Origin: a virus
Lineage: Duplodnaviria; Caudoviricetes
DNA: 64,000 nucleotides
Virus record (IMG/VR): IMGVR_UViG_3300025892_000008
Strand: one strand, 5' to 3'
Positions 25,689-43,663 of the stretch are shown one piece after another (within the stretch, counting starts at the first letter, position 1; each line of letters begins with the position of its first letter). The notes below the pieces were generated by a model. The model was not told where the DNA came from and made no database searches. It saw only the letters and a list, made by a program, of their open reading frames with translations. A program made the position numbers and the translations under genes.

Positions 25689-25704
25689 GTGATCAGGAGC
25701 GAAT

Positions 25705-27948: not shown

Positions 27949-27949
27949 T

Positions 27950-28318: not shown

Positions 28319-28341
28319 TAGTTACAAACTAGGAAAAATAC

Positions 28342-30084: not shown

Positions 30085-30968
30085 TGGCCAACATTAAAGC
30101 CAGTGACATAAACACAATCAGACAAAAAATTACTGATGTCCTAGGTACAGGTGCTACAACTTTTGGCTATGGCCAAACAGTTTATAGTTCTGCTATTACA
30201 GCAGGAACAATAATTCAAAAATCTCAATGGGATGCTGTAAGATTTGATATTGTAAATGCTTACGTTCATCAAACAGGTAATAGTCCAAGTGCAATTACTG
30301 TTAGCACAGGAGATACTATAAATGATGATGCAAGTGGTGCATATCAAAACTACGATTATTTTGCTGATGTATTAAGAAACAATAGATTCGATGTTTCTAC
30401 AGGACAATTTACCCAAACTTCAATTGATACTAAACTAACAACAGCAACTTGGAATAGCACAGCAACTTGTACTGTTACAATTGATTTTGCATCTGCAGAA
30501 GACGGTAGACACTTTTTTAATAGTGGCGGAGCAATTAGAATAGAAACAAGTCATGTTAATGGAACTTCAGCGCAAGCAGGTGCTTGGTCAACTATGTTAG
30601 CATCAATTGCCCCACAAGATTTTGCAGGCGATTTAATAGCATCAACTGGATATTACACATTAACTAATTCATTTCAAACATATTTTTCAAATGCAGCAAG
30701 TACACCGTATAGTGGCAACACGTATAATCTCAAAGCAAAATGTAATGTTGCAAATAATAGTGCAGGAACAGCCACGCAGGTAGTAATACAAGTAAATTTA
30801 GCAGATACATATGTAGATCCAGGATCACCGCCTCCAGGTGATTTAGTAGACGGTAAATTAACAATAGATGTAAACAAAATACAAGCAGCAGGAACATTAG
30901 CACCATCAGGCACCTTTGCAGTTACTGGTCCAAGCAGTACTACTGTTTCAGCAATTAGTGTAGCATAA
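30084..30968 (+). CDS. Virion structural protein (paralog A)
   Basis: Thr/Ser/Ala-rich; shares FGYGQ.V.S and RHFFNxGGxI motifs with 31001..32011. Confidence 0.6.
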   Translation: MANIKASDINTIRQKITDVLGTGATTFGYGQTVYSSAITAGTIIQKSQWDAVRFDIVNAYVHQTGNSPSAITVSTGDTINDDASGAYQNYDYFADVLRNNRFDVSTGQFTQTSIDTKLTTATWNSTATCTVTIDFASAEDGRHFFNSGGAIRIETSHVNGTSAQAGAWSTMLASIAPQDFAGDLIASTGYYTLTNSFQTYFSNAASTPYSGNTYNLKAKCNVANNSAGTATQVVIQVNLADTYVDPGSPPPGDLVDGKLTIDVNKIQAAGTLAPSGTFAVTGPSSTTVSAISVA

Positions 30969-30977
30969 CTCTGCTAT

Positions 30978-30985
30978 TATAAATA
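30978..30985 (+). promoter_or_regulatory. T4 late promoter consensus TATAAATA
   Basis: Exact 8-nt consensus in the gap before the GAGG SD and ATG at 31001. Confidence 0.7.
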
Positions 30986-31000
30986 CTTGTGAGGTAAAAA

Positions 31001-32011
31001 ATGGCAGGTGTAAACCAAAAAATCAGAAAAGTTGACTATAACAGTGTCCAAAGTGATATTGATAGTATCTTAGGTACAGGTACTAGTAATTTTGGATATG
31101 GACAGCCTGTTTTAAGCAACCAAGTTGATGAATCTAATTCAGTTACTGTAAACGAATACGCAGCACTACGTTTTGATATAATCAACGCTTACAAACATTT
31201 ATTTAATAGTTTACCACCTGATGTAGATGCACAAACAATTGGCGCAACAGTAAGGTTTGATAGTGCACCACCAGATGCTGCACCTATAGGTTATTGGGCA
31301 AGTGTAGTAAATTCTATAAGTACAAACAGACTAGCATTAGCAGTTAGTGGACAACGTGTAACAGTAAATCACGGAACAACAAATTTTAGTAGTGCCTGGG
31401 GTGCATCAGCACCTTTAGGTTCACCGTCGCCACAATTATCATGCCAAGTTGATGTTGAATGGACTACTAGTGAACAAGCAAGACACTTTTTTAACGCAGG
31501 CGGCAGTATACAATTTACAAGTACAAGAACAGGCGGAAGTTCATCTGCACAAAATACAAGTTGGACAACTTTATTAAGTACTGCTGGTACAAGAGTATTT
31601 GGAGGCAATACTCCTGGAACAGGAACAACACCATCTAATGGACAAAATTGGTTTAGAGCAAGAAGCATAGCAGATGCATGGAGTACTTCTACTGCATCAA
31701 GTCCTTACGCATTAAATGAATTTAAAATTACAGTACAAACAAATGATTCACCCACAGTATCTAGTAACAGTTCGGGTGCTTCAAGAAAATTAAGATTCAT
31801 CCTATATTGGCTTGACAATCACTTTCCACTTGGAGGAGACTCAGATTCAGGAACTCCTGTACAACCAGGAGTACTAGGACCGGATACTGTAGATGGTACT
31901 ATTGCATTAACTGTACAAACAGTCAAAGCATCAGGCGTTTTGGAACCAGCAGCCTCTGGAAACTTTGAAGTATCAACACCTACTGTAACAATTGGATCAA
32001 TTGTAAACTAA
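31001..32011 (+). CDS. Virion structural protein (paralog B)
   Basis: Paralog of 30084..30968 (FGYGQPV, QARHFFNAGGSIQF). Confidence 0.6.
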   Translation: MAGVNQKIRKVDYNSVQSDIDSILGTGTSNFGYGQPVLSNQVDESNSVTVNEYAALRFDIINAYKHLFNSLPPDVDAQTIGATVRFDSAPPDAAPIGYWASVVNSISTNRLALAVSGQRVTVNHGTTNFSSAWGASAPLGSPSPQLSCQVDVEWTTSEQARHFFNAGGSIQFTSTRTGGSSSAQNTSWTTLLSTAGTRVFGGNTPGTGTTPSNGQNWFRARSIADAWSTSTASSPYALNEFKITVQTNDSPTVSSNSSGASRKLRFILYWLDNHFPLGGDSDSGTPVQPGVLGPDTVDGTIALTVQTVKASGVLEPAASGNFEVSTPTVTIGSIVN

Positions 32012-32040
32012 TAAATTTTTCACCCCAACACAACTACCGA

Positions 32041-32046
32041 TAAATA
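32041..32046 (+). promoter_or_regulatory. T4-late-like promoter core TAAATA upstream of the glycan-modification cluster
   Basis: Intergenic; a second TAAATA at 32061-32066 runs into the GGAG SD of the 32076 gene. Confidence 0.55.
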
Positions 32047-32075
32047 ATATGCTACTATAATAAATAGGAGATATT

Positions 32076-32426
32076 ATGCAGGAACACTTAGATAAAGCAC
32101 TTGAGTTTGCTAATTATAGACAAACATTTGCTATCCAAAGAAAAACACTAAAAGAAAAAATTGATGCACAGTTAACCTACGGAGTTAATGGTGGCATATT
32201 TAAAATTGACAGATCATTATTAAACTTTGTTGAAATGTTAATTTTTAAATCTAGAAGAGAAAATGTAGTTCTACTTGATAAGAACGACAACCCAATATTA
32301 ATTGAAGATTTAACAAAATTTAGAGATGAAATATTTGATAGGTACTTTTCAGCAACCTTTGCATATTTGGAAGAATACCAAAAAATTAAAAAGGCAAGAT
32401 CTGTAGAAACAATATTGGAAGTTTAA
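32076..32426 (+). CDS. Hypothetical protein
   Basis: Strong SD (AGGAG); its stop overlaps the next start. Confidence 0.75.
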   Translation: MQEHLDKALEFANYRQTFAIQRKTLKEKIDAQLTYGVNGGIFKIDRSLLNFVEMLIFKSRRENVVLLDKNDNPILIEDLTKFRDEIFDRYFSATFAYLEEYQKIKKARSVETILEV

Positions 32427-33292
32427 TGAGCAAGGGTGTAATAATATTTGCTCACAATAATCGGCAGATTGATTATATCCGCATGAGCATACTTGCGGCA
32501 AAATTAGCAAATAAGAATTTGCAAGTTCCTGTATCACTAGTTACTGATCCATCTACAATTGATTGGATGAAAGAGTCTAATATTGAAAAAACAGTAACTG
32601 AAACATTCGATAATATTATTATAACAGAAAGACCAGACGATACAAATAATGTAAAAAATTACAATGATGGAAAATATAAAGTGCATGCGCCTTTCAATAA
32701 CGGTAATAGAGGTAGTGTTTGGGATCTTACACCTTACGATAGAACGTTGATGATAGATAGTGACTACCTTACTTTGACAGATACATTATCTAACTATTGG
32801 GATATAGACGAAGATTTATTAATAAGTCCTAAGTATAATGATATACAAGGTGTCGAAAGAATAGGATATCTTGATACACATATCTCAGAAACAAGTATAG
32901 ATATGTTATGGGCAACAACTGTAATGTTTACAAAAAATGAAACTACTAAAATATTTTTTGACTTAGTTGCACATGTAAAAGAAAAATATAAAATGTACAG
33001 CGATATCTATAGATTTAATCCAATTGTTTTTAGAAACGATATTGCATTTAGTATTGCAAAACACATAATGAATGGCTATCAAAAGATAGACGAACCTAAC
33101 TTACCTGATATTTTTTCAACAGCAGACAAAGATATTTTAGTTGATGTTTCCAACGAAAGATTAAAATTTTTAATTGCACAAATTAACAGTGACAATTATG
33201 TCGCTACTAGTGTGTGCAATAAAGATGTGCATGTAATGAATAAGTTTAGCATTATGAGAAACTATGATAACCTTATGGAGTTGGCACAATGA
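32426..33292 (+). CDS. Glycosyltransferase-like protein (GT-A, GT8-like)
   Basis: TPYDRTLMIDSDY DxD motif, WATTVMF and FRNDIAFSIA segments. Confidence 0.6.
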   Translation: MSKGVIIFAHNNRQIDYIRMSILAAKLANKNLQVPVSLVTDPSTIDWMKESNIEKTVTETFDNIIITERPDDTNNVKNYNDGKYKVHAPFNNGNRGSVWDLTPYDRTLMIDSDYLTLTDTLSNYWDIDEDLLISPKYNDIQGVERIGYLDTHISETSIDMLWATTVMFTKNETTKIFFDLVAHVKEKYKMYSDIYRFNPIVFRNDIAFSIAKHIMNGYQKIDEPNLPDIFSTADKDILVDVSNERLKFLIAQINSDNYVATSVCNKDVHVMNKFSIMRNYDNLMELAQ

Positions 33293-34134
33293 CGTTTGGA
33301 TATTTAATTATTGTTAATGATACTGATACATCTAACTATACTAAATTAGCATACACCCTTGCATTAAGTATTAAGAACACACAGAAAGAAGGTTTTGATA
33401 AAGTAGCATTAGTTATAAATGATAAAACAAAAGTAGAAAGTTATACTTCAACTTGGGTATTTGATGAAATAATAGAATGGGATGGTGCTGTACACTGGGA
33501 CGGCAGATCTTATATGGACGAACTTACACCATGGGATGCTACTATTTGTTTAGATGCAGACATGTTGTTCTTAAGAGATTACAGTCATTGGGCAGAATAC
33601 TTTATTAAGAATAGTGAATTATATATTGCAAATAAAGCATATACATATAGAGGTGATATAGTTACTAATGATTATTATAGAAAATGCTTTACAGCAAATG
33701 AATTACCTAACTTATATTCTTTTTATACATTCTTTGTAAAAAACAGTTCAGTAGCAAAAGAGTTTTTTAATCTACAAAGACAAATTATTAAAAACCCTGA
33801 ACTTTATGCTAATAATTTTTTAGCAAAACACAAACCAACTATTGTAGGTACAGATGAAGCGTTTGCACTTGCATCAAAAATATTAGATATCACTGATGAG
33901 ATTGCGTATCCTTTAGAATTTCCTAGAGTAGTACACATGAAGGGAATGGTACAGAATTGGCCATACGGTGCAGATGATTGCTACGATCATATAGGATTTT
34001 ATTTAAACAAACAAGGAAAATTAAAACTTGGTAATTTTGAACAAACTGACATAGTTCATTATGTTAACAAGGAAACAGTCACGCTGGAAACAGTAAACAT
34101 ATTGGAGGAAATAGCATGGCAGAAAAACAAATAG
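33289..34134 (+). CDS. Glycosyltransferase-like protein (GT-A, GT8-like), paralog of the previous gene
   Basis: TPWDATICLDADMLF DxD motif, GTDEAFALA segment. Confidence 0.6.
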   Translation: MTFGYLIIVNDTDTSNYTKLAYTLALSIKNTQKEGFDKVALVINDKTKVESYTSTWVFDEIIEWDGAVHWDGRSYMDELTPWDATICLDADMLFLRDYSHWAEYFIKNSELYIANKAYTYRGDIVTNDYYRKCFTANELPNLYSFYTFFVKNSSVAKEFFNLQRQIIKNPELYANNFLAKHKPTIVGTDEAFALASKILDITDEIAYPLEFPRVVHMKGMVQNWPYGADDCYDHIGFYLNKQGKLKLGNFEQTDIVHYVNKETVTLETVNILEEIAWQKNK

Positions 34135-34760
34135 AAATTCCTGATTTCGACGAATGGATTGCAAACTACAAGCATAAGCCTGTGGCATATAATGCAGCAT
34201 TTGATGTTGAAACAGGCCGTGTGTTATCTGTAGGGCCAGATCATACTGTAAACGAAAAAGAGTTTGAAAATGTCATACCTCTTGAAGCAGATATTGCTGA
34301 AAAAATTATATCTAGCGAAATTAGTATGAGTAAATGTTTTATCGATCCTGACCAAGGCGAATTAGAAATTGTTGAAAGAAGAGATTTGTATAAAATAGAT
34401 GATGTACTACATAGAATTATTGTTAGAAAATATTCAGAGATTAAAAAACCAGACATCTATTTAGAACACAATGCTAAAACAAATATATTGTCTGTAGAAC
34501 TTAGTGAAGAATTTGGTGGAACATACAAACAACAAAAAGGAATTGATGTTGTAAAAAGAAAAATGTTCTGGAATGGCGAAACACAACTTGATTTTACAGT
34601 TACAGATTATAATGATCCTAATATTGTAACTGATAATTTTAGTGTAACAATTAATGATCTGATTGGTAACAAAGTTGAACTTAAAGAACTTAATATAAAC
34701 AGGTTCTTTAGCGTATATACAAGACGCTTATTTAAAAACTATATGATTGAGGAAAGATGA
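34116..34760 (+). CDS. Hypothetical protein
   Basis: Overlapping ORF in the operon; no recognisable motif. Confidence 0.7.
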   Translation: MAEKQIEIPDFDEWIANYKHKPVAYNAAFDVETGRVLSVGPDHTVNEKEFENVIPLEADIAEKIISSEISMSKCFIDPDQGELEIVERRDLYKIDDVLHRIIVRKYSEIKKPDIYLEHNAKTNILSVELSEEFGGTYKQQKGIDVVKRKMFWNGETQLDFTVTDYNDPNIVTDNFSVTINDLIGNKVELKELNINRFFSVYTRRLFKNYMIEER

Positions 34761-35665
34761 AACGGGTAATTGAGTTTGATGTATTCTTTTTGAGTTATGA
34801 TGAACCTAATGCAGATCTTCATTATGCAGATCTATGTAATAAAGTTCCATGGGCAAAACGTATACACGGTGTAAAAGGTAGCGATCATGCACACAAAGCA
34901 GCAGCAGAGCAATCAGAAACTGATTGGGTGTTAACTGTAGATGCTGACAATATTGTGTATCCACAATTTTTTGATATTGAAATAGATATGGACAATCCGG
35001 ATATACAAGCATACAGTTGGTGCGGTAGGAATAACGTAAATGGTTTAAGATATGGCAACGGTGGATTAAAACTGTGGAATGTTGATCATGTTAAAAATAT
35101 GAAAACTCACGAGAACGCTGATAGTGACAGAGCTCAGGTAGATTTCTGTTGGGAAACAGGATACAGAAACTTTCCAAAGACTTTCAGCGATACTGTAATT
35201 AATTATAATCCGTTTATGGCATGGCGTGCAGGATTTAGAGAAGGTGTTAAGATGACACTAGACAACGGATTAAAAGTTCCACCACAAGAAATTGAAAAGC
35301 GTATATGGTGGCACAACATACATAGACTAGGAATATGGAGTACAATTGGTAGTCATGTTGAAAATGGACTATTTGCAGTTTATGGTGCAAGACTAGGAAC
35401 ATATCTTACAAATTGTACAGATTGGGACCATATACAAGTAAGAGATTTTGAATCACTACGTGAATTATACAATGAGCAATGTAAACAATATGAAGATGGT
35501 GTTGGATTAGAACAAGAAGTAAAACGTTTAGGAACCGAATTAAAAAACCAACTTGGTTTTAATTATCCATATCTAGATGAATCTATGAGCAAATATGTGT
35601 TAAACTTATATGAGCAAACTATTGATCTAGCAAAAACGTATTATAGGACTACAGATGATCTATGA
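34757..35665 (+). CDS. Glycosyltransferase-like protein (GT-A/GT2-like)
   Basis: FDVFFLSYDEPNAD, HGVKGSDHAHKAAA, VLTVDADN (DxD), LRYGNGGLKLW, AWRAGFREGVK. Confidence 0.6.
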   Translation: MKRVIEFDVFFLSYDEPNADLHYADLCNKVPWAKRIHGVKGSDHAHKAAAEQSETDWVLTVDADNIVYPQFFDIEIDMDNPDIQAYSWCGRNNVNGLRYGNGGLKLWNVDHVKNMKTHENADSDRAQVDFCWETGYRNFPKTFSDTVINYNPFMAWRAGFREGVKMTLDNGLKVPPQEIEKRIWWHNIHRLGIWSTIGSHVENGLFAVYGARLGTYLTNCTDWDHIQVRDFESLRELYNEQCKQYEDGVGLEQEVKRLGTELKNQLGFNYPYLDESMSKYVLNLYEQTIDLAKTYYRTTDDL

Positions 35666-36695
35666 TTTATTTTATGTCAGTCAAGGCAAAGCAGAACACT
35701 GGCAAGAGTTTAAGTCTAGATTCTCTAATGCCCAACTGATTGAAGATGTTGAATCTCTAGATCAAATAAAGCAAAAGACATTAACTAGAATGTTTTGGGT
35801 AGTGTGGGATGATATGAAAGTAAAAGATGATTTTGACTTTGAATATCGTGCTACTGAGTGGGACCTAGAATACGTTCATGTATTCAAGAATGGTAATCAC
35901 TTCAATGGTGTTACCCTTATGCCTAAGAATGCTCCAGCATCTAACAAAGAATTCAAGTTCCGATTCTTTATCAACAAAAAAGAAATAGATATAGTAGCCA
36001 GCGATCCTAGGAGTATAGGAAGTAGTTTTGATATTGTGTTTATTTCTTACTATGAACCTTATGCAGATAAAAATTGGCAGCGGTTAAAAAGTAGATTCCC
36101 AAGAGCAAAAAGAATTTCAAACGTAAAAGGAATTCATCAAGCACATTTAGAAGCAGCAAAAATTGTTGAAAGTGATATGTTCTGGGTAGTAGATGGCGAT
36201 GCACATATAGTTGAAGAATTTAATTTTGATTACCAAGACCCGGAAATGTATACTGTGCATGTATGGCGTAGTATCAATCCAGTAAATGACTTAGAGTACG
36301 GATACGGTGGCGTTAAATTATTACCAACGCAGATGACTTTAGATATGGATATGTCTAAACCAGATATGACTACTAGTATTAGCAATAAATTTAAAGCCGT
36401 TAATGAACTTTCTAACATAACAGCATTTAATACAAATGAGTTTGAAGCATGGAAAGGTGCATTTAGAGAATGCTGTAAGTTAGCAAGTAAAACTATACGA
36501 GGACAAAACGAAGATGAAACTAATGAAAGGTTGGCTAAATGGTGTTCAGCCTATGGCAGAGATCGTCCGTTTGGTGATTACGCCATTCAGGGAGCCCGTG
36601 CTGGCAGGAAATATGGTGTGGCTAACAGTACTAATCCTGATGCTCTTAGATTAATAAATGACTTTGATTGGTTAAAGGAGCAGTTTGATGCATGA
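35655..36695 (+). CDS. Glycosyltransferase-like protein of the same family, with a duplicated N-terminal module
   Basis: FDIVFISYYEP, NVKGIHQAHLEAA, FWVVDGDA, LEYGYGGVKLLP, AWKGAFRECCK. Confidence 0.6.
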   Translation: MIYDLFYVSQGKAEHWQEFKSRFSNAQLIEDVESLDQIKQKTLTRMFWVVWDDMKVKDDFDFEYRATEWDLEYVHVFKNGNHFNGVTLMPKNAPASNKEFKFRFFINKKEIDIVASDPRSIGSSFDIVFISYYEPYADKNWQRLKSRFPRAKRISNVKGIHQAHLEAAKIVESDMFWVVDGDAHIVEEFNFDYQDPEMYTVHVWRSINPVNDLEYGYGGVKLLPTQMTLDMDMSKPDMTTSISNKFKAVNELSNITAFNTNEFEAWKGAFRECCKLASKTIRGQNEDETNERLAKWCSAYGRDRPFGDYAIQGARAGRKYGVANSTNPDALRLINDFDWLKEQFDA

Positions 36696-38052
36696 CAAAG
36701 ATAGGATAGAAAAATTTATACCTATCATGGACGAGATATCGCCTACCTTCTGCTTGGCTAAATGGCATCACACTACTATCTATTTAGGAACAGGAGAAAC
36801 ACATAGTTGTTATCATCCTGCTCCACATAAAATTCCGCTGGAAGGACTAGAAGAAAATCCTAGTCTATTGCATAATACCCCTCAAAAGAAAGCCGAAAGG
36901 CAGGCTATGATAAACGGAGAGAAACCTAGCGGTTGTAACTATTGTTGGAATGTTGAATGTATGGGTAAAGATTACATTAGTGATCGTAAAGAACGGAATG
37001 CAAGTATACATACACCAAAACGTTTTAATGATATTAAACAAAATCCAATGGCAGATGTTAATCCACAATATGTGGAAGTTAGTTTCGGTAATGAATGTAA
37101 TTTTAAATGCGGATATTGTCATCCTAAACATTCTAGCAGTTACTATAAAGAAATTGAAAAAGAAGGTCCATACACTATGGTTAAGAATCATAGGAATGAT
37201 ATTGACTGGTTTAAAATACACAAAGACGAAGAAACAAATCCATATGTTAAAGCATGGTGGAAGTGGTGGCCTGAATTGCGTAAGACACTTACAATTTTAC
37301 GTATTACAGGTGGTGAACCGTTACTACAGCAAAGCACATGGCGTATGTTCGACGAACTAGAAAAGAATCCATGCCCTGAATTAGAATTAAACATTAACAC
37401 TAACTTAGGTGTTAAGCCTATCCTTATTGAAAGATTTACTGACAAAGTAAACAGTTTAGTTGAAAAAGGCTGTATCAAAGACTTTAAAATTTTTACTAGT
37501 ATTGATACATGGGGACCACAAGCAGAGTATATCAGAACAGGCTTAGATTTAGAGCTGTGGGAAAAGAACTTAGACATGTACATGACTAGAACTAATATGC
37601 CTTTAACATTTATGGTTACATTTAATATTTTAACTGTAACTAACTTTAGTAAACTATTGCAAAAGTTTTTAGACTGGCGAATAAAGTATAATAGTGATAA
37701 TCAAACTAAATGGCAGCGTATTAGATTTGATACTCCGTATCTGAAAGAACCGTTGCAATATGATATGAATATACTTCCTAAAGATGCATTTGTTCCTTAT
37801 ATGAAACAGCACTTACAATTTATAGCAGAAAATTTAGATGATGCAGACAAACACAAATTTAGTATACTTGAATATGAGAAGTTTAGACGTGTAGTTGATT
37901 ACATGGCTTCTACAAATTATACTCCAGAGCGTGTACAAGAAGGTCGAAGAGATTTTCACAATTGGTTTACTGAATATGATCGAAGAAGAAATGTAAGTTT
38001 TGTAGAAACGTTTCCCGAACTAGAGGAATTTTATTTTGACTGTGCCCAGTAA
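36685..38052 (+). CDS. Radical SAM protein with N-terminal Cys-rich (twitch/SPASM-like) region
   Basis: CNFKCGYC (CxxxCxxC), ITGGEPLL, N-terminal FCLAKW...SCYH...GCNYCW. Confidence 0.85.
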   Translation: MMHDKDRIEKFIPIMDEISPTFCLAKWHHTTIYLGTGETHSCYHPAPHKIPLEGLEENPSLLHNTPQKKAERQAMINGEKPSGCNYCWNVECMGKDYISDRKERNASIHTPKRFNDIKQNPMADVNPQYVEVSFGNECNFKCGYCHPKHSSSYYKEIEKEGPYTMVKNHRNDIDWFKIHKDEETNPYVKAWWKWWPELRKTLTILRITGGEPLLQQSTWRMFDELEKNPCPELELNINTNLGVKPILIERFTDKVNSLVEKGCIKDFKIFTSIDTWGPQAEYIRTGLDLELWEKNLDMYMTRTNMPLTFMVTFNILTVTNFSKLLQKFLDWRIKYNSDNQTKWQRIRFDTPYLKEPLQYDMNILPKDAFVPYMKQHLQFIAENLDDADKHKFSILEYEKFRRVVDYMASTNYTPERVQEGRRDFHNWFTEYDRRRNVSFVETFPELEEFYFDCAQ

Positions 38053-39223
38053 AACATTTTGCATATTGCCTTGGATACATCTGTATGCCAATCCTGACGG
38101 CACTGTTCTACCTTGTTGTGTAGGAGACTGGCAGCAATCTATGGGTAATGTTCAGAACACAAAATTAGAAGATGTCTTTAATAATGAAAAGTTTAAGCAG
38201 ATGCGTAAGAACATGTTGGCTGGAAAAAAATGTAGCCAATGTACTGCATGTTACCGCGATGAAGATTCAGGTAACAGTAGTTTTCGTAAGCACAGCAACG
38301 AGCAGTTTGAAAAATATATTGATGATGCAGTTTTAAACACTAATGATGATGGCAGTATGGACGATTTTAGGTTGCGATATTTAGATGTTAGATGGAGTAA
38401 TATTTGCAATTTTAAATGTAGATCTTGCGGTCCTTTGTATTCAAGTAGTTGGGCGCAAGAACACGGTAGCGAAAAAATCTTTACCTATGCAGGCGGAGTT
38501 AGCAATGATGAACTATACAAACAGTTTGAACCTCACTTTGACACTATAGAAGAATTTTACTTTGCAGGCGGCGAGCCATTACTTACAGATAAGCATTACG
38601 AAATATTAGAATATCTAATTGATCACGATCGAACAGATGTAAAGTTAAGATACAACACAAACATGAGTGTGTTAAAATATAAAGGAAAGAGTGTTTTAGA
38701 CTTATGGAAAAAATTTAGTAACGTTATGATTGGAGCGAGCCTAGATCATTATGGATCTAAGGCTGAATATATACGGCACGGGACAGATTGGCCTTTAGTT
38801 GAAAGTAATTTAAAATTAATTCGGAAGGAAACTCCACATGTAGAATTGCATACAAACACGGTAGTATCTATTTTTAATATAAAGACTTTACCTAAGTTTA
38901 TTCAGTATATTATTGATAATGATTTAGTCAGTACAAAAAATTATAACCCTAATTTTTATAATATAATGAATCCAGACTATTATAGTTTTAAAATAATCCC
39001 AGAAGAGGACAAGGTAGATATCATAAAATCCTTGGAAGAGTTTGCTACACAGCACGGTGGAAACATCAAATATGGAATGCAGGGTGTTATAAATGGATTA
39101 CGAACATCGATGTATTCTCCCAAACTTAAAACAAAGTTATCGGTAGAAACAAAACATTACGATCATCTGCGCAAAGAAAGCGTAGAAGAAACTTTTCCTG
39201 AAATACAAGGATGGATTCAATGA
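38036..39223 (+). CDS. Radical SAM protein with N-terminal twitch/SPASM-like region
   Basis: CNFKCRSC, FAGGEPLL, N-terminal FCILPW...PCC...CSQCTAC. TTG start with a GAGG SD. Confidence 0.85.
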   Translation: MTVPSKTFCILPWIHLYANPDGTVLPCCVGDWQQSMGNVQNTKLEDVFNNEKFKQMRKNMLAGKKCSQCTACYRDEDSGNSSFRKHSNEQFEKYIDDAVLNTNDDGSMDDFRLRYLDVRWSNICNFKCRSCGPLYSSSWAQEHGSEKIFTYAGGVSNDELYKQFEPHFDTIEEFYFAGGEPLLTDKHYEILEYLIDHDRTDVKLRYNTNMSVLKYKGKSVLDLWKKFSNVMIGASLDHYGSKAEYIRHGTDWPLVESNLKLIRKETPHVELHTNTVVSIFNIKTLPKFIQYIIDNDLVSTKNYNPNFYNIMNPDYYSFKIIPEEDKVDIIKSLEEFATQHGGNIKYGMQGVINGLRTSMYSPKLKTKLSVETKHYDHLRKESVEETFPEIQGWIQ

Positions 39224-40446
39224 AGATATACTTCGATACACTATTAAGTAATGAATCTAATCAAAACAAATTAGCAACTAAAGGTAACACAGACTATTGG
39301 CTTGTTGCACCGGGTGCGCCTATTAAACAAAAGTGTATTAACATGAAACTAAATGTTTCGGAGTTAACAGATGTTAACGAAAAAGGAATATATTTTGTAG
39401 ATGTTAGAGGAGATCCCCAGTGGTGGGCAGGAGTTTTAACTAATGCCGGAGTCCCTCATAAGCACATTTTGTCTTGTATACCAAAACAAATTAGAAAATT
39501 AGTTAAAGATAAAAAAATTAGACTTGTGATAAATGCTGACAGAGAAGGTGGCCCGATGGTTACACAACATTGGGATTGTTTCTTATCTACACATAACACT
39601 ATGATTGAACTTGGATTACCTAAGGACAGCGTTCTAATACTACAGGGTAATAAAAAGGTTGAACATCAATATCGAAGATGGAGAAAATACAAAAGTGTTG
39701 ACAAGATGTATGATATAATGTATAGTAATCACTTTGGAAACATATTTGGAGATGCGAATTTGCCTACTAGTCCTGTCATAAAGTATGCAATGGCTAATCC
39801 TAGTAGTAAAGATTACAATAGTTTAAATAGAATATACCGTCCACATCGCGGCGCACACTTATATAGATTAATGAAAGACGGCTTTCTAAGTAACGGAATA
39901 GTAAGCGGCAATGAAATAACACTCAAAGATAAAGATACAGAAAATTTAGTCGGTGACTATCAAGATATAACAAAAGAGTTTCCTAAGTTTATAGACGGAG
40001 ACTGGAGCAAAACGAATGCTGCTAATCAGTATAACGCTGACATATATAAAAATAGTCTGCTTACAGTAATAACAGAAACTATATTCCTGCATGACGTTGC
40101 TTTTATTACTGAAAAAATATTTAAACCTATTACAATGGGGCATCCGCTTATACTATTTGCTAGCCAAGGAACTCTTAAAAGTCTTGAACGAATGGGATTT
40201 AGAACAGATTGGTGTGGAATAGATCCTGAATACAATGACATAGAGGATAATATAGAACGCTTCAATGCCACACAACAAGTATTATATGATTGGATTACAC
40301 TCTCACAGGAAGAAAAGATAGCAAGATTAGAAAAGAGCATGGACACAATACAGCATAATTTTAATTTAATTAGACACAGTGACTTTTATGCTGATGCAAT
40401 ACACGAAGCAGTTGCTAGAACGGAGAAGTATTATGAAACCGTTTAA
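39211..40446 (+). CDS. Glycosyltransferase-like protein (GT10/fucosyltransferase-like C-terminus)
   Basis: SLNRIYRPHRG and VITETIF...ITEKIFKPI..GHP motifs; paralogous to 41170..42324. Start may be 39220. Confidence 0.5.
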   Translation: MDSMKIYFDTLLSNESNQNKLATKGNTDYWLVAPGAPIKQKCINMKLNVSELTDVNEKGIYFVDVRGDPQWWAGVLTNAGVPHKHILSCIPKQIRKLVKDKKIRLVINADREGGPMVTQHWDCFLSTHNTMIELGLPKDSVLILQGNKKVEHQYRRWRKYKSVDKMYDIMYSNHFGNIFGDANLPTSPVIKYAMANPSSKDYNSLNRIYRPHRGAHLYRLMKDGFLSNGIVSGNEITLKDKDTENLVGDYQDITKEFPKFIDGDWSKTNAANQYNADIYKNSLLTVITETIFLHDVAFITEKIFKPITMGHPLILFASQGTLKSLERMGFRTDWCGIDPEYNDIEDNIERFNATQQVLYDWITLSQEEKIARLEKSMDTIQHNFNLIRHSDFYADAIHEAVARTEKYYETV

Positions 40447-41170
40447 TCAATACAAGAGATTTTTTGCATTCGGTTGCAGTCTAACAAGTTATAATTGGCC
40501 TACGTGGGCTGATATTATATCCAAAGAAGTTCCTGAATATTACAATTATGCAAAAAGCGGTGGCGGCAATTTATTCATATCTAATAGCATAGTAGAGGCT
40601 AACCTAACACACAAATTTACAGAAAATGATCTAGTAATAGTAATGTGGAGCAGCATTTCAAGAGAAGATAGATATAAAGATAATAATTGGCAAACACCAG
40701 GAAACATACACACTCAAGATGTTATAGATGTAGAGTTTGTAAATAAATGGAGCAATGAAAGATTTTATCTAATTAGAGATTTAGCATTAGTAGAACAAGC
40801 AAGAGTTTATCTAAATCATCTTCCTTGTGACACAGATATGCTTAAGATGGTAGATTTTGTAAAAGGTAATGAATTACAAGATGTTGTTGATACGTATACA
40901 AATACAATACAAAGTATAAAGCCTGCTATAGTTGATGTCGTTTACAAAGGCACATGGCCTATTACTCCTATTAAAGGATGGAGTGGTAAAGGTCAAAGTG
41001 CAGACTATCATCCAACACCTTTAGGATATTTAAAGTATCTTGAACATTTTTATACAGTTACTGATAATATGAAACAGTTTGCAAAAGAGTATGATGCAAA
41101 AGTTTTAAATTGTAGCACACTAGATGATACATTAAAATTTTGGTCCCCTTCGTATGTAAGGAGATTATAA
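40433..41170 (+). CDS. SGNH/GDSL-like protein (possible acyl transfer or hydrolysis)
   Basis: FAFGCSLT (block I-like), NYAKSGGGN, VIVMWS, C-terminal DYHPT (DxHP). Start placed at the ATG after GGAG. Confidence 0.6.
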   Translation: MKPFNQYKRFFAFGCSLTSYNWPTWADIISKEVPEYYNYAKSGGGNLFISNSIVEANLTHKFTENDLVIVMWSSISREDRYKDNNWQTPGNIHTQDVIDVEFVNKWSNERFYLIRDLALVEQARVYLNHLPCDTDMLKMVDFVKGNELQDVVDTYTNTIQSIKPAIVDVVYKGTWPITPIKGWSGKGQSADYHPTPLGYLKYLEHFYTVTDNMKQFAKEYDAKVLNCSTLDDTLKFWSPSYVRRL

Positions 41171-42324
41171 TGCCCTGCATAAACACAAACAATTTAATTT
41201 ATGTGTTAACCTATAATGCCAATAACCCACAGGTGCTTAACATTTCAAATAGTACAGGGGTTATAGCAAAGTGGAAAATACCTCAAGAGTTTTTCTACAT
41301 ACAATTTTCTAATGACAAAAGTTTTAAGGTATTTGATATTAACGCACTAGTACCGGAAAAAGAATTCAAAGAAATTAAGGATCCTGACTCTAACATACAT
41401 CTGATGCTAGATAATGGACTAGAACATTTTTATTCTTGTGCTGATAGTATTTACGAAGATATTATTATTAAGCATTCAATTCCTGCACACAAGATTATAT
41501 TCCTTAGTGCAATACCAACTATGCATGACCATATTAAAAAATTATCAGCAAAATATAATTTGCCTGAGATAAAACTAGACTGGTTTAGTCTTTTTGAATC
41601 TACTGGAAAGGATACGATACTCAAGTCTAAGAATGTTCTAACCTTACAGAAAAAACAAAAGTATGAAAGAGCATATCTCAATCTAAACAGGAGATGGAGA
41701 TCACACCGAACTTTAATGTTTACTCTATTAAAGGATAGAAATCTTTTGGATCGAGGATATGTAAGTTTTGCTCCATCTGATGATGGGTGGAATTGGAATG
41801 CGGCTTACAATAGGTTGATAGCTCTATATAGAGACCATGATCGAATAAAACCGATACTGGAAAGAAACAAGGATGTTGTTGATACTCCGCCTTTATATTT
41901 GGATACGGAGGATTTAGTAACAAATAGGGCAGAGCATGAGACATCAATAAATGATTACTATGCAAGAACATATTTTAGTGTAATAAATGAAACTACATAT
42001 CACGAAGGAGTTCCTTTCTTTAGCGAAAAAATTTTTAAGGCTATTGGAATAGGTCACCCATTTGTAATAGCAACTGCACCAAATAGTTTAAAATATTTGA
42101 GGGAACTAGGTTACAAAACCTTTCATCCTTTCATCAATGAATCATACGATACTATTGATGACCATGGAGATAGGATGATATCCATAGTTAATGAAATCGA
42201 GCGACTTTGCAAAATGGATAAGAATGAATTTAAAAGTTGGAGATCTAATATCGAACCTATTGTTAAACACAATAAGATGATTTTGGATAATAAGAAGATT
42301 ATTACAAAACCTATGAACTACTAG
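41170..42324 (+). CDS. Glycosyltransferase-like protein (GT10-like C-terminus), paralog of 39211..40446
   Basis: LNLNRRWRSHR, FSVINETT...FSEKIFKAI..GHPF...YLRELGYKTF. Confidence 0.5.
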   Translation: MPCINTNNLIYVLTYNANNPQVLNISNSTGVIAKWKIPQEFFYIQFSNDKSFKVFDINALVPEKEFKEIKDPDSNIHLMLDNGLEHFYSCADSIYEDIIIKHSIPAHKIIFLSAIPTMHDHIKKLSAKYNLPEIKLDWFSLFESTGKDTILKSKNVLTLQKKQKYERAYLNLNRRWRSHRTLMFTLLKDRNLLDRGYVSFAPSDDGWNWNAAYNRLIALYRDHDRIKPILERNKDVVDTPPLYLDTEDLVTNRAEHETSINDYYARTYFSVINETTYHEGVPFFSEKIFKAIGIGHPFVIATAPNSLKYLRELGYKTFHPFINESYDTIDDHGDRMISIVNEIERLCKMDKNEFKSWRSNIEPIVKHNKMILDNKKIITKPMNY

Positions 42325-42325
42325 C

Positions 42326-42431
42326 ACAGTTTTAAGGCGCCTTAAACGCATTTTAAGCGTCATACAGCGGTGTTATATACCAAGAGCTACAGTTACGCTA
42401 TACTGCTGTAAACCACGTTTAAATGCACTGT
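42326..42431 (+). ncRNA. Candidate structured RNA or structured intergenic element (three-way junction)
   Basis: Pairings read by eye: 42326-30/42427-31, palindrome 42331-46, 42348-60/42415-26, 42363-73/42400-10, including three G-U pairs. Strand inferred from the G-U pairs. Confidence 0.45.
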
Positions 42432-42444
42432 AATAAGAAGATTG

Positions 42445-42450
42445 TAAATA
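42445..42450 (+). promoter_or_regulatory. T4-late-like promoter core TAAATA
   Basis: Intergenic, upstream of the GGGAG SD and GTG at 42479. Confidence 0.5.
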
Positions 42451-42478
42451 TGTTTGTACCAAAATTGGGAGAAGAAAC

Positions 42479-43663
42479 GTGAAGATAGGATTTATTGGAT
42501 TAGGTAAATTAGGATTGCCATGTGCAGAAGTAATTGCTAAAAAAGGACATAGTGTACTAGGTTATGATATTGATACAGTACATAGTGATTATGTAATTGT
42601 AGAAGATACTATACAAGATGCAGTAAAGGATAGAGATATTGTGTTTGTTGCTGTTCCTACACCACATGATCCTAATTATGATGGTAGAGCACCTACAGCA
42701 CATTTAGAACCAAAAGATTTTTCATACGATATTGTTCATAGTGTCCTTAAAGAAGCAAATAAGCATATGAATAAAGACCAATTGCTTGTGCTTATTAGCA
42801 CAGTATTGCCAGGTACAGTACGCAGAGAATTTATACAACACATTACTAATACACGGTTTGTTTACAATCCATACTTAATTGCAATGGGAACTGTTGCTTG
42901 GGATATGGTAAATCCGGATATAGTAATGATAGGAACACATGACGGAAGTGCTACAGGCGATGCTATCGAACTTGTAAGATTTTATCACACAATAATGGAA
43001 AACAATCCTAAGTATGAAATTGGAACTTGGGACGAATGTGAATGTATAAAAGTATTCTACAATACATTTATTTCAACTAAGATTGGATTAGTAAACATGA
43101 TGCAAGATGTTGCTGAGCGACAAGGTAATATAAATGTTGACAAAGTTACTGATGCATTATCTAACTCTACAAAAAGAATTACTAGTTCTGCATATATGAA
43201 AGCAGGAATGGGAGATGGCGGCGCATGCCATCCTAGAGATAATATAGCATTACGCTATATGGCTAAAAAATTAGATTTAGGTTATGATATCTTTGATGCA
43301 ATTATGAATGCTAGAGAAGTACAAGCACAAAATATTGCAACCAAACTCTGTGAAATTGCAAAAGAAAAAGAACTTCCTATTTTAATAAATGGTATTGCTT
43401 ATAAACCAGGTGTGCCTTATGTTGACGGAAGTTATGCATTACTAGTTTCACAATACTGTCACGAATACGGATTTAATCCAATGAAAATTGATCCATTAGT
43501 ATATGGACCTGACAAAGGACCTTATAGAGCAGTAGTTCTTCTTGCGCATCCAGAAATGTATATTGATGTTACTAATGATAGTGTTGTAGTTGATCCATGG
43601 AGAGAACATACTTCGGATACATACGAAGTTGTACATTACGGTAATACTAGAGAATCTTCTTAG
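42479..43663 (+). CDS. ugd: UDP-glucose/GDP-mannose 6-dehydrogenase family protein
   Basis: Rossmann GFIGLGKLGLP, FVAVPTP, ISTVLPGT, YNP, KVFYNTFISTKI, GMGDGGACHPRD (catalytic Cys), GIAYKP. Substrate specificity not determined. Confidence 0.85.
   Translation: MKIGFIGLGKLGLPCAEVIAKKGHSVLGYDIDTVHSDYVIVEDTIQDAVKDRDIVFVAVPTPHDPNYDGRAPTAHLEPKDFSYDIVHSVLKEANKHMNKDQLLVLISTVLPGTVRREFIQHITNTRFVYNPYLIAMGTVAWDMVNPDIVMIGTHDGSATGDAIELVRFYHTIMENNPKYEIGTWDECECIKVFYNTFISTKIGLVNMMQDVAERQGNINVDKVTDALSNSTKRITSSAYMKAGMGDGGACHPRDNIALRYMAKKLDLGYDIFDAIMNAREVQAQNIATKLCEIAKEKELPILINGIAYKPGVPYVDGSYALLVSQYCHEYGFNPMKIDPLVYGPDKGPYRAVVLLAHPEMYIDVTNDSVVVDPWREHTSDTYEVVHYGNTRESS

What the first reader, a model, noticed from the sequence alone, without database searches (positions are those of the whole stretch)
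32041..43663. 11.6-kb late-type glycan-building cluster directly behind the tail-fibre genes: possible virion glycosylation
Seen: eleven tightly overlapping genes followed by ugd, including three paralog pairs of GT-like proteins (GT8-like, GT2-like, GT10-like), two radical SAMs and an SGNH protein. The cluster is co-oriented with the structural genes and preceded by TAAATA motifs. Established: some large eukaryotic viruses glycosylate capsids or fibrils with their own enzymes, and some phage GTs modify host surfaces. Inference: the phage builds a complex decorated glycan on Ser/Thr-rich virion proteins, or remodels the host envelope. The GT family calls are tentative.
Basis: partly seen in the sequence, partly recalled or inferred. 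Interest (0 to 1): 0.7.

Follow-up and report, generated by a model that had tools for sequence, protein, structure and literature searches.

The report
Fibre-linked phage glycan-building operon
An uncultured marine giant phage carries, right behind its tail-fibre genes, a real operon of six sugar-transferring enzymes, two unstudied radical-SAM enzymes, an esterase-like protein and a sugar-nucleotide dehydrogenase that always travels with a fibre-type protein, so it most likely puts a variable sugar coat on the virus particle, though product and target are untested.

Summary
Window 32076-43663 has eleven overlapping + strand genes plus a nucleotide-sugar dehydrogenase gene, behind the baseplate and tail-fibre genes.

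- **Enzyme families.** There are four paralog pairs, not three: a GT8-like GT-A pair, a GT2-like GT-A pair, a GT-B pair (GT10 not shown) and two radical SAM enzymes of NCBIfam NF033640. The SGNH call rests on motifs and a DUF6071 link. "ugd" is a divergent family member of unknown substrate.
- **New here.** The true unit starts upstream, with a Ser/Thr-rich fibre-type protein "X", duplicated at 30084-32011.
- **Core and tail.** An eight-gene core (X, g1, A1, A2, g4, B1, B2, rSAM1) recurs in fixed order in hundreds of phage contigs and in the cultured Ralstonia phage RsoM2USA. It also occurs once away from fibre genes. The distal half (rSAM2, D1, SGNH-like, D2) is swapped as cassettes between near-identical phages.
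- **Location in the cell.** No protein has a membrane helix.

Best reading (0.45): a cytoplasmic pathway builds a variable glycan on virion protein, probably X. Rivals are host-surface remodelling (0.25), another product (0.13) and DNA modification (0.07).

The scan found this module before on other DNA. Fibre-linked glycosyltransferase islands are also described for marine myophages (PMC7029224).

The parts
30084..30968 (+). X1: 294-aa Ser/Thr-rich (24%) fibre-type protein and first gene of the conserved module. Candidate glycan acceptor.
   Evidence: Paralog of X2 (E 1e-32). The X family precedes g1 in every relative examined. X also occurs as a domain in longer proteins with Gly_rich_2, Ig, fn3 and lectin-type domains.
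31001..32011 (+). X2: 336-aa paralog of X1. TATAAATA lies 21 nt upstream of its start.
32040..32070 (+). Conserved promoter-like element: ATAAATA, then 4-7 nt, then GCTACTATAA, then AGGAG, just before g1.
   Evidence: The element is conserved in window, L007, L027, L030, L041, L044, L052 and L060, although their proteins are only 50-70% identical. Function is inferred.
32076..32426 (+). g1: 116-aa conserved protein of unknown family. Core member.
   Evidence: No Pfam, NCBIfam or PHROG hit. Present in 41 of 41 loci with enough upstream DNA, and in RsoM2USA ORF354.
32426..33292 (+). A1: GT8-like GT-A glycosyltransferase with a DxD motif.
   Evidence: The profile of 18 A-family proteins hits glycogenin-1 at E 2.4e-7, aligned through the DxD. 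D113 is invariant.
33289..34134 (+). A2: paralog of A1 (GT8-like GT-A).
   Evidence: Atlas look-alike clusters carry PF03407, PF01501 and PF11051.
34116..34760 (+). g4: 214-aa conserved protein of unknown family. Core member.
   Evidence: No family hit. Present in 40 of 41 loci and in RsoM2USA ORF351.
34757..35665 (+). B1: GT2-like GT-A glycosyltransferase with a C-terminal helical domain.
   Evidence: AF2 model with pLDDT 84.7. The best Foldseek match is the PBCV-1 A64R capsid-glycosylating GT, followed by GT2 enzymes. VIA Z is 9-11 to GT-A transferases over residues 1-150. D62 and D64 are invariant.
35655..36695 (+). B2: paralog of B1 with an extra N-terminal domain of about 120 aa. That domain is repeated up to three times in relatives.
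   Evidence: Most distant homologs are fused B1-B2 proteins of about 530 aa, and a few carry PF00535.
36688..38052 (+). rSAM1: radical SAM enzyme with an N-terminal twitch domain. It is the most conserved gene of the cluster and a core member.
   Evidence: NF033640 scores 315 bits against a cut-off of 170. The CX3CX2C motif and N-terminal Cys residues are invariant. Median identity in relatives is 89%. 37% identical to RsoM2USA ORF349.
38036..39223 (+). rSAM2: paralogous N-terminal-twitch radical SAM enzyme in the variable part.
   Evidence: NF033640 scores 396 bits. Only 50% identical in the nearest relative L007, whose flanks are 93-99% identical.
39211..40446 (+). D1: GT-B fold glycosyltransferase in the variable part.
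   Evidence: Paralog of D2. Shares the invariant E..EK and GHP motif region.
40433..41170 (+). SGNH-like (DUF6071-related) esterase or acyltransferase candidate.
   Evidence: Invariant G-C-S, N and H. DUF6071 is found in 4 of 9 relatives and Lipase_GDSL_2 in one at E 0.041. No PDB sequence match.
41170..42324 (+). D2: GT-B fold glycosyltransferase in the variable part.
   Evidence: AF2 model with pLDDT 86.1. Foldseek and VIA return only GT-B transferases, Z 7.5-10.6. Atlas structural neighbours include fusions to an NDP-sugar epimerase/dehydratase and to a methyltransferase.
42442..42450 (+). Conserved TTGTAAATA element before the dehydrogenase gene.
   Evidence: Present at the same place in L007, L027, L041, L044 and L060.
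42479..43663 (+). Nucleotide-sugar 6-dehydrogenase family protein (Ugd-like). Substrate not assignable.
   Evidence: Pfam UDPG_MGDP_dh_N and central domains are present. TIGR03026 scores 165 bits, below its cut-off of 189.8. 50% identical over its full length to a Bdellovibrio gene that lies beside an N-twitch rSAM and a D-like GT.

Best explanation
This is a self-contained, cytoplasmic glycan-assembly and tailoring operon of a jumbo myophage.

Proposed steps:
1. A divergent nucleotide-sugar dehydrogenase supplies an NDP-uronic acid.
2. Two GT8-like, two GT2-like and two GT-B transferases add sugars one after another.
3. Two N-terminal-twitch radical SAM enzymes change sugars by oxygen-independent radical chemistry, and an SGNH-like protein adds or removes an acyl group.

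The acceptor is most likely a phage-made virion protein. The best candidate is the Ser/Thr-rich fibre-type protein X (30084-32011), which always heads the module. The conserved core (X, g1, A1, A2, g4, B1, B2, rSAM1) would make a common inner glycan. The cassette-swapped distal genes (rSAM2, D1, SGNH-like, D2) would vary its outer part, giving related phages different surface glycans.

Shown: the folds and families, the synteny, the cassette swapping, and the absence of predicted membrane helices. Inferred: the order of steps, the chemistry of the radical SAM enzymes, the acceptor, and the late timing.
For: - **Enzyme identities.** A pair: glycogenin profile E 2.4e-7. B pair: GT-A model with invariant DxD, and the best Foldseek match is the PBCV-1 capsid-glycosylating A64R. 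D pair: GT-B model. rSAMs: NF033640 well above cut-off.
- **Nearest solved rSAM relatives.** They are small-molecule, sugar or nucleotide enzymes: viperin 2.5e-8, MoaA 9e-6, and the BtrN twitch domain 1.5e-5 aligned to the N-terminus.
- **Dehydrogenase.**
- **No sign of a membrane pathway.** All twelve proteins lack a hydrophobic stretch typical of a membrane helix (maximum KD19 1.42). No initiating phosphoglycosyltransferase, flippase, polymerase or ligase is in the operon.
- **X heads the module everywhere.** It was found in 41 of 41 loci recruited by pair B that have enough upstream DNA. It is also there in RsoM2USA ORF355-348, in L096 and L077, and in two jumbo-phage contigs binned as Haliscomenobacter. 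In L149 the module sits beside thyA and DHFR rather than fibre genes.
- **X is a surface-type module.** In RsoM2USA it is fused to the N-terminal domain shared by the tail fibres. Elsewhere it is fused to Gly_rich_2, Ig, fn3, Calx-beta, FG-GAP and ConA-like lectin domains. S+T is 24%, against 16-17% in the neighbouring fibre and the gene before it.
- **Mosaic divergence.** L007 is 93-99% identical in the fibre, X, core genes and ugd, but 50, 83, 64 and 55% in rSAM2, D1, SGNH-like and D2. Other relatives have swapped B2 or replaced the distal genes.
- **Shared upstream element.** A conserved TAAATA-containing element lies before g1 and before ugd, and also before three structural genes.
Against: - No glycan, glycoprotein or expression timing has been observed.
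- Pair B, the N-twitch rSAMs, D-like GTs and the same dehydrogenase subfamily also occur together in Bdellovibrionales chromosomes, where no X homolog was found. The enzymes therefore do not need X in principle.
- X may simply be the last fibre gene, with g1 as its chaperone.
- The 41 of 41 count comes from loci at least 61% identical in B1, so it is biased towards one broad clade.
- Peripheral transferases without membrane helices can still act on lipid-linked acceptors at the inner membrane.
- D2 matches T4 DNA glucosyltransferases as well as any other GT-B (Z about 10).
- Another note of this scan reports TAAATA before DNA-modification genes too, so 'late' is not secured.
Confidence: 0.45

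Rival explanations
1. Host-envelope remodelling. The soluble transferases act at the inner face of the host membrane on lipid-linked LPS, O-antigen or capsule intermediates, using the host's carrier lipid, flippase and ligase. This would change the infected cell's surface, for example to exclude superinfecting phages or to stop progeny from re-adsorbing. It is the published reading for fibre-linked GT islands of marine myophages.
For: - PMC7029224 describes a hypervariable host recognition cluster in pelagimyophages and cyanomyophages. It holds tail fibres, glycosyltransferases (GT8 the commonest), UDP-glucose 6-dehydrogenase and radical SAM cassettes, and the authors read it as O-chain modification.
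- Large cyanomyophages carry many such genes.
- GT8, GT2 and GT-B families and Ugd are typical of LPS and capsule loci (established knowledge).
- Cassette swapping resembles O-antigen loci.
- Cellular homologs exist in Bdellovibrionales.
Against: - The core enzymes keep the same order and 35-42% identity between a Ralstonia (Betaproteobacteria) phage and marine phages of other hosts. That is hard to reconcile with host-specific lipid-linked acceptors.
- No membrane component is encoded.
- The module is always headed by a phage structural-type protein.
- A change to the envelope made late in a lytic cycle would have little time to act (inference).
Confidence: 0.25
2. Another soluble product. 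The operon makes a free or protein-bound glycoside or nucleoside-type metabolite, or glycosylates a non-virion phage or host protein. Here the radical SAM enzymes would act on a uronic-acid glycoside, as in peptidyl-nucleoside antibiotic pathways.
For: - The nearest solved relatives of the rSAMs act on small molecules (viperin, MoaA, BtrN).
- Bacterial loci combine the rSAMs with an AMP-binding enzyme, further rSAMs and an amidinotransferase-like protein.
- The L149 version adds fatty-acid desaturase-like, QueC-like and SDR genes.
- The L071 version adds a carbamoyltransferase.
Against: - Six transferases in three paralog pairs fit an oligosaccharide better than a small glycoside.
- Constant linkage to X and the usual position in the fibre block are left unexplained.
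Confidence: 0.13
3. DNA hypermodification. The transferases glycosylate modified bases of the phage genome.
For: - Phage GT-B and GT-A enzymes are known to glycosylate DNA. T4 alpha- and beta-glucosyltransferases are among the tied best matches of D2 (Z 9.9-10.5).
- According to other notes of this scan, the same genome has a 7-deazaguanine module containing its own GT.
Against: - The cluster lies in the structural super-operon on the opposite strand from, and away from, the replication and DNA-modification genes.
- No hydroxymethylase, kinase or base-exchange partner is present in it.
- Linkage to X is unexplained.
- The DNA-modification module already has its own transferase.
Confidence: 0.07

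Closest known systems
Host recognition cluster (HRC) of pelagimyophages and cyanomyophages (Zaragoza-Solas et al. 2020, PMC7029224)
   Same: Both are hypervariable islands inside the structural region of marine myophages. Both combine tail fibres with glycosyltransferases (GT8 prominent), UDP-glucose 6-dehydrogenase and radical SAM cassettes, and both gain or lose cassettes gradually.
   Different: The HRC is described in T4-like phages between VrlC and gp14, from annotation only, and is read as host O-chain modification. Here the phage is a jumbo phage with an RsoM2USA-type layout of baseplate hub, wedge and giant protein. A fixed eight-gene core headed by protein X is defined, and the families are assigned by profile and fold. 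Whether the HRC genes are homologous to these was not tested.
Mycobacteriophage virion glycosylation (Freeman et al. 2023, as summarised in PMC12619734)
   Same: In both, phage-encoded soluble glycosyltransferases are encoded with the structural genes. In the mycobacteriophages, glycans sit on the C-termini of capsid and tail-tube subunits. X1 also ends in a Ser/Thr-rich tail.
   Different: Hosts, transferase families and scale differ: two or three GTs there, against six GTs plus radical SAM enzymes, an SGNH-like protein and a dehydrogenase here. The proposed acceptor is a fibre-type protein, and nothing has been shown experimentally. The paper itself is not held, so it was read only through a citing paper.
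Chlorovirus PBCV-1 capsid glycosylation enzyme A64R (PDB 2P6W, 2P72, 2P73)
   Same: It is the best Foldseek match of B1 (E 4e-5) and is a virus-encoded cytoplasmic GT-A that glycosylates a virion protein. VIA gives Z 10.3.
   Different: Sequence identity is 13-18% and TM-scores are low (0.24-0.41). Many GT2 and other GT-A enzymes score equally, so this is a fold-level likeness and not orthology. A64R is from a eukaryotic virus.
NCBIfam NF033640, N_Twi_rSAM (twitch domain-containing radical SAM protein)
   Same: Both radical SAM genes score far above the family cut-off and have the N-terminal Cys cluster and CX3CX2C.
   Different: The family has no characterised member that I could find, so membership names no reaction.
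Ralstonia phage RsoM2USA ORF355-348 (MG752970; PMC8504454)
   Same: It has the same core in nearly the same order: X-type protein, g1, A1, A2, g4, B1, rSAM1, B2. Identities are 34-42%. The core lies behind the giant structural protein and the baseplate genes.
   Different: All these ORFs are annotated hypothetical. No D-type GT-B, SGNH-like gene, second rSAM or dehydrogenase was found in that stretch. It is a soil phage of a betaproteobacterium.

Membership tests
GT8 (glycogenin / LgtC type retaining GT-A), for A1 and A2 | Sequence-profile relation to GT8 members, including the DxD region | tested here: met
   The profile of 18 A-family proteins hits 19 PDB sequences, all glycogenins. The best is E 2.4e-7 (34 bits), aligned over query positions 13-109 through the DxD. 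A smaller profile gave E 0.033.
GT8 (Pfam PF01501 Glyco_transf_8), for A1 and A2 | Score above Pfam's gathering threshold | tested here: not met
   The window proteins have no Pfam hit even at E 10. PF01501 did not match any of the 18 relatives at E up to 1, and one matched PF11051 at E 0.0059. The pair is therefore GT8-like, not a Pfam GT8 member.
GT2-type GT-A glycosyltransferase, for B1 and B2 | GT-A Rossmann-like fold with a DxD motif | tested here: met
   AF2 model with pLDDT 84.7. Foldseek matches to A64R and GT2 enzymes at E 4e-5 to 1e-3. VIA Z 9-11.2, rmsd 3.0-3.6 over about 140 residues. D62 and D64 are invariant in 24 sequences.
GT2 (Pfam PF00535 Glycos_transf_2), for B1 and B2 | Score above Pfam's gathering threshold | tested here: not met
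   Only PF13704 was found, at E 0.022. A few distant fused homologs carry PF00535, and it is marked 'faint' for P0211.
GT10 fucosyltransferase, for D1 and D2 | GT-B fold | tested here: met
   AF2 model with pLDDT 86.1. All listed Foldseek and VIA matches are GT-B transferases.
GT10 fucosyltransferase, for D1 and D2 | Specific relation to GT10 rather than to other GT-B families | tested here: inconclusive
   FUT9 (Z 9.9), FUT11 (9.3) and H. pylori FucT (9.3) are tied within 1 Z unit with GT4, GT63, GT72 and other families. There is no Pfam or PDB sequence hit. The E..(S/T)EK motif resembles the GT10 motif only by eye. Atlas neighbours fused to a GDP-mannose-dehydratase-type domain are a lead.
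NF033640 N_Twi_rSAM | Score above the curated cut-off (170 bits), with the full-length model matched | tested here: met
   315.4 bits (model positions 1-398) and 395.7 bits (1-396).
Radical SAM superfamily with twitch auxiliary cluster | CX3CX2C motif plus a separate conserved Cys cluster | tested here: met
   C124, C128 and C131 are invariant, and so are C9, C28, C69 and C72 in the N-terminal domain. Pfam SPASM matches residues 9-72 of rSAM2. The BtrN twitch domain aligns there.
SGNH / GDSL hydrolase | Invariant Ser, Gly, Asn and His in four blocks | tested here: met
   G14-C15-S16, N46 and H193 are invariant in nine homologs. A Gly in the block before N46 is present in the window's nearest relatives.
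SGNH / GDSL hydrolase | Profile or fold relation to known SGNH proteins | tested here: inconclusive
   Lipase_GDSL_2 matched one of nine relatives at E 0.041, and DUF6071 matched four of nine. There was no PDB sequence match.
UDP-glucose 6-dehydrogenase (Ugd) | UDPG_MGDP_dh N-terminal and central domains | tested here: met
   PF03721 at E 3e-20 and PF00984 at E 8e-18. A GGxCxP(K/R)D-like motif with Cys is visible in the alignment.
UDP-glucose 6-dehydrogenase (Ugd) | Equivalog or subfamily cut-off, which implies substrate identity | tested here: not met
   TIGR03026 scores 165 bits against a cut-off of 189.8. The Ugd equivalogs score 48-116 bits against cut-offs of 670-757. The C-terminal UDP-binding Pfam domain was not detected.
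Virion glycosylation system (mycobacteriophage or chlorovirus type) | Glycan covalently bound to virion protein and dependent on the phage's own GTs | not testable with these tools
   This needs glycoproteomics of virions.
Host recognition cluster (PMC7029224) | Hypervariable island in the structural region holding fibres plus GT, Ugd and rSAM genes | tested here: met
   Position behind the fibres. Mosaic divergence and cassette replacement.

The most novel reading that the evidence does not exclude
Jumbo phages carry a portable 'glyco-fibre' module. In this reading a dedicated fibre-type protein (X) is glycosylated in the cytoplasm by its own GT8-like and GT2-like enzymes. The sugars are then rebuilt by a so far uncharacterised family of N-terminal-twitch radical SAM enzymes, perhaps acting on a uronic acid supplied by the linked dehydrogenase. 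A cassette-swapped outer part would give related phages different virion glycotypes. That would be a phage counterpart of bacterial O-antigen variation and the first radical-SAM-tailored protein glycan.
Probability: 0.2. Interest if true: 0.85.

Novelty: new variant of a known kind. Interest (0 to 1): 0.6.

Why it matters
Virion glycosylation in phages has been shown only for mycobacteriophages. The many sugar-transferring genes of marine phages are usually assumed, without a test, to alter the host surface.

This module is widespread:
- Pair B has at least 7998 hits in the protein collection.
- X has 2334 cluster representatives.
- Hundreds of viral contigs carry the module.

It has a fixed core and contains a radical SAM family with no known reaction. 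It also exists in a culturable phage, RsoM2USA, so both the target and the chemistry can be tested directly.

If the glycan sits on fibres, it bears on host recognition, on phage-phage competition, and on why fibre regions of marine phages recruit metagenomic reads poorly.

Tried and rejected
- **Megablast of the cluster against 50,697 phage records:** no match.
- **Single-sequence Pfam, PHROG and NCBIfam scans:** nothing for 8 of the 12 proteins.
- **PDB profile searches:** nothing meaningful for pair B, pair D, the SGNH-like protein or X. The sphingomyelinase hit (E 0.014) and the coronavirus spike hit (E 0.068) are taken as chance.
- **Ferritin hit in D2:** E 5e-4, below the cut-off, short, and judged spurious.
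- **PF01501 search of G001:** returned no loci from the control genomes, so an hhalign test against GT8 could not be built that way.
- **Atlas look-up of g4:** only unnamed viral clusters.
- **Sigma-70 promoter and terminator scans inside the cluster:** not above shuffles. The exact motif TATAAATA is under-represented in the window, 3 found against 12 expected.
- **Metatranscriptome runs:** four runs of one study hold the stretch. Their contigs cover the cluster and the opposite-strand genes at equal word depth, so neither transcription nor timing can be inferred.
- **Complex prediction of X1 with g1:** no verdict, score 0.00.
- **'Haliscomenobacter', 'Rickettsiales' and 'Verrucomicrobia' MAG loci:** first taken as cellular examples, then rejected. 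They are phage contigs.
- **Literature searches:** nothing on N-terminal twitch rSAM function, or on rSAM plus GT in jumbo phages.
- **Freeman et al. 2023:** the paper is not held.

Full report
**1. What is there**

The + strand of the window carries one long structural block:
- baseplate hub and wedge genes (229-6026);
- a 4978-aa giant ORF (6026-20962);
- four fibre proteins that share an N-terminal domain (21642-30084, the last with a Peptidase_G2 intramolecular-chaperone domain);
- then the stretch in question.

GC skew changes sign near 44 kb, where genes switch to the - strand. From 32076 to 42324 eleven genes overlap by 1-19 nt. After a 154-nt gap comes a dehydrogenase gene at 42479-43663. 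Alignments with relatives move three starts: rSAM1 to 36688, the SGNH-like gene to 40433 and D2 to 41170.

BLASTP of all against all shows four paralog pairs in the cluster:

| Pair | Genes | E-value |
|---|---|---|
| A | A1 / A2 | 1.7e-6 |
| B | B1 / B2 | 1.3e-23 |
| rSAM | rSAM1 / rSAM2 | 6e-23 |
| D | D1 / D2 | 5.4e-15 |

The two genes just upstream form a fifth pair: 30084 and 31001, here called X1 and X2 (E 1e-32).

**2. Family assignments**

Eight of the twelve proteins have no Pfam, NCBIfam or PHROG hit on their own. I therefore built alignments from related loci.

- **Pair A.** A profile of 18 diverse members hits only glycogenins (GT8) in the PDB. The best is E 2.4e-7, aligned through the invariant DxD. 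Atlas look-alikes carry GT8-clan families. Pfam's own GT8 model is not matched. The pair is GT8-like.
- **Pair B.** The AlphaFold model of B1 (pLDDT 84.7) has an N-terminal GT-A domain and a helical C-terminal domain. The best Foldseek match is the PBCV-1 A64R capsid-glycosylating transferase, followed by GT2 enzymes. An independent structural search gives Z 9-11 to GT-A transferases. D62 and D64 are invariant. The family is very large: at least 7998 hits, mostly fused B1-B2 proteins of about 530 aa, a few with PF00535.
- **Pair D.** The model of D2 (pLDDT 86.1) is a GT-B transferase. All best matches are GT-B enzymes at Z 7.5-10.6. Fucosyltransferases are tied with many other families, so GT10 is not shown. 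Atlas structural neighbours include fusions to an NDP-sugar epimerase/dehydratase and to a methyltransferase.
- **Radical SAM enzymes.** Both are full-length members of NF033640 (315 and 396 bits, cut-off 170), with the auxiliary-cluster (twitch) domain at the N-terminus. Their nearest solved relatives are viperin, MoaA and BtrN, which act on nucleotides or sugars and not on peptides.
- **SGNH-like protein.** It keeps an invariant Gly-Cys-Ser, Asn and His. Relatives match DUF6071 and, weakly, Lipase_GDSL_2.
- **'ugd'.** It belongs to the nucleotide-sugar dehydrogenase family but scores below the subfamily cut-off, so its substrate is open.
- **g1 (116 aa) and g4 (214 aa).** Both remain without a family.

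None of the twelve proteins has a stretch hydrophobic enough for a membrane helix.

**3. Relatives and the real unit**

The cluster is syntenic in 64 IMG/VR marine contigs found with rSAM1. More distant versions showed that the conserved unit begins upstream.

- **L149 (355-kb contig).** The order is X, g1, A, A, g4, fused B1-B2, rSAM1. Here it lies next to thymidylate synthase, DHFR and an NDP-sugar epimerase, not next to fibres.
- **Ralstonia phage RsoM2USA (cultured).** ORF355-348 are X-type protein, g1, A1, A2, g4, B1, rSAM1, B2, at 34-42% identity. All are annotated hypothetical. They lie behind the giant structural protein and the baseplate genes. Its X-type protein carries the N-terminal domain shared with the window's tail fibre.
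- **Contigs filed under bacterial MAGs.** Contigs labelled Rickettsiales, Verrucomicrobia and Haliscomenobacter turned out to be phage contigs with the same order. The Haliscomenobacter ones hold a baseplate wedge gene 38% identical to the window's, up to six rSAMs alternating with four D-type transferases, and a carbamoyltransferase.
- **Viral loci recruited with pair B (77 new loci).** Every one of the 41 with enough upstream DNA has X, g1 and pair A. Of the 46 with enough downstream DNA, 42 have the rSAM, 27 a D-type transferase and 11 the SGNH-like gene.

So there is an eight-gene core (X, g1, A1, A2, g4, B1, B2, rSAM1) followed by a variable tail.

True cellular homologs do exist. Bdellovibrionales chromosomes combine pair B, arrays of N-twitch rSAMs, D-like transferases and a dehydrogenase 50% identical to the window's. 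No X homolog was found there.

**4. Protein X**

X1 and X2 are 24% Ser+Thr and are among the most divergent genes of the block (median identity 37-46%). The family has 2334 cluster representatives. In many of them X is one domain of a 400-1455 aa protein, together with Gly_rich_2, Ig-like, fn3, Calx-beta, FG-GAP or ConA-like lectin domains. This is the make-up of surface-exposed fibre or adhesin proteins. X has no Pfam family and no solved relative.

**5. Variation**

The nearest relative, L007 (which is G001), has 94% DNA identity. Its proteins compare as follows:

| Genes | Protein identity to the window |
|---|---|
| Fibre, X1, X2, g1, A1, A2, g4, B1, B2, rSAM1, ugd | 93-99% |
| rSAM2 | 50% |
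| D1 | 83% |
| SGNH-like | 64% |
| D2 | 55% |

Other close relatives have exchanged B2 alone, or have replaced the distal genes altogether. rSAM1 is the most conserved gene (median 89%) and ugd the next (81%). A conserved frame with swapped tailoring cassettes is what one sees in loci that determine the structure of a surface glycan.

**6. Regulation**

Before g1 lies ATAAATA, then 4-7 nt, then GCTACTATAA, then AGGAG. This is conserved in relatives whose proteins are only 50-70% identical. Before ugd a conserved TTGTAAATA is found. TAAATA also precedes three structural genes (2511, 28342, 31001). In all, five of 24 + strand starts have it within 50 nt, against about 0.5 expected. No internal terminators or sigma-70 promoters stand out.

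That these are late promoters is an analogy with T4, and another note of this scan reports the hexamer before DNA-modification genes. Metatranscriptome contigs cover both strands evenly and say nothing about expression.

**7. Interpretation**

It is well supported that this is a glycan-assembly and tailoring operon (about 0.85). The target is inferred.

I favour a virion protein, probably X (0.45), for three reasons:
- The enzymes are soluble, and no lipid-carrier, flippase, polymerase or ligase genes accompany them.
- The core keeps its order and 34-42% identity across phages of very different hosts. This fits a phage-encoded acceptor better than host-specific lipid-linked ones.
- X heads the module even where the module is detached from the fibre genes.

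Several points weigh against this:
- The cellular versions have no detectable X.
- X with g1 might be just a fibre and its chaperone.
- Peripheral transferases can act on membrane-bound acceptors.
- There is no experimental datum.

The published reading for comparable islands in pelagimyophages and cyanomyophages is host O-chain modification (PMC7029224). I give it 0.25. A free glycoside or another protein target gets 0.13, and DNA modification 0.07.

**8. Novelty**

- Fibre-linked GT, Ugd and rSAM islands in marine myophages are described at annotation level.
- A paper on aquatic jumbo 'moraphages' lists four core glycosyltransferase orthogroups and mentions virion glycosylation as one option. 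Whether those are these genes was not tested.
- This scan has met the same module on other DNA several times, with similar conclusions.
- What is added here for this window:
  - the family and fold assignments;
  - the eight-gene core headed by X;
  - X as a widespread surface-type domain;
  - the cassette mosaic;
  - re-assignment of the mis-binned contigs.

I class it as a new variant of a known kind. It is of good but not exceptional interest, mainly because an unstudied radical SAM family and a testable virion-glycan hypothesis come together in a culturable phage.

Noticed in passing
window 6026-20962 (+): A single 4978-aa ORF lies between the baseplate wedge gene and the fibre genes. RsoM2USA has a 2541-aa structural protein, found in its virions, at the same place.
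   Followed up: no
L071/L151/L154 and L075/L152/L153 (NZ_JBBAKG010000001.1 and ...003.1, 'Haliscomenobacter sp.' MAG): Two contigs of 183 and 148 kb in a RefSeq MAG are jumbo-phage contigs. Each has a baseplate wedge gene 38% identical to the window's, an X gene and the glycan module with five to six rSAMs. This is either mis-binning or a hint that the host is a member of the Bacteroidota.
   Followed up: partly
L096 (NZHE01000008.1, 'Rickettsiales' MAG) and L077 (NHDJ01000025.1, 'Verrucomicrobia' MAG): Short MAG contigs that are really phage contigs with the order Peptidase_G2 fibre, X, g1, A, A, g4, B, rSAM and so on. L096 has a 735-aa rSAM ORF (not examined further) and a DUF6071 protein where the window has its SGNH-like gene.
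   Followed up: partly
window 35655-36020 (N-terminus of B2); L027:8377-10011, L041:8380-10011: B2 carries an N-terminal domain of about 120 aa (motif WD..Y.HVFKNG..YDG). In some relatives it is repeated three times, giving 545-aa proteins. It has no family.
   Followed up: no
window 42326-42431: The gap before ugd holds a GC-richer stretch with a perfect palindrome (TTTTAAGGCGCCTTAAA around 42331-42346). Another note of this scan reads it as a three-way junction. I only saw the sequence.
   Followed up: no
window 32251, 32795 and 42333-42375: Contigs from several metatranscriptome runs branch away from the window at these points, near the two ends of the cluster. This suggests co-occurring strains with other versions of the island (table 7).
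   Followed up: no
L149:13551-16303 and 16298-17746: In a 355-kb relative, the core is followed by a QueC-like protein, two fatty-acid-desaturase-family proteins, another radical SAM enzyme and an SDR, instead of the D and SGNH-like genes.
   Followed up: no
MG752970.1 289223-289654: RsoM2USA has a second X-like stretch far from the module.
   Followed up: no
Vibrio phage KVP40 group (e.g. NC_005083.2 143522-144466): 36 Vibrio schizoT4-like phages encode a distant (23% identity) full-length relative of rSAM2. It is variously annotated as QueE, heme biosynthesis or MoaA/NifB/PqqE protein.
   Followed up: no
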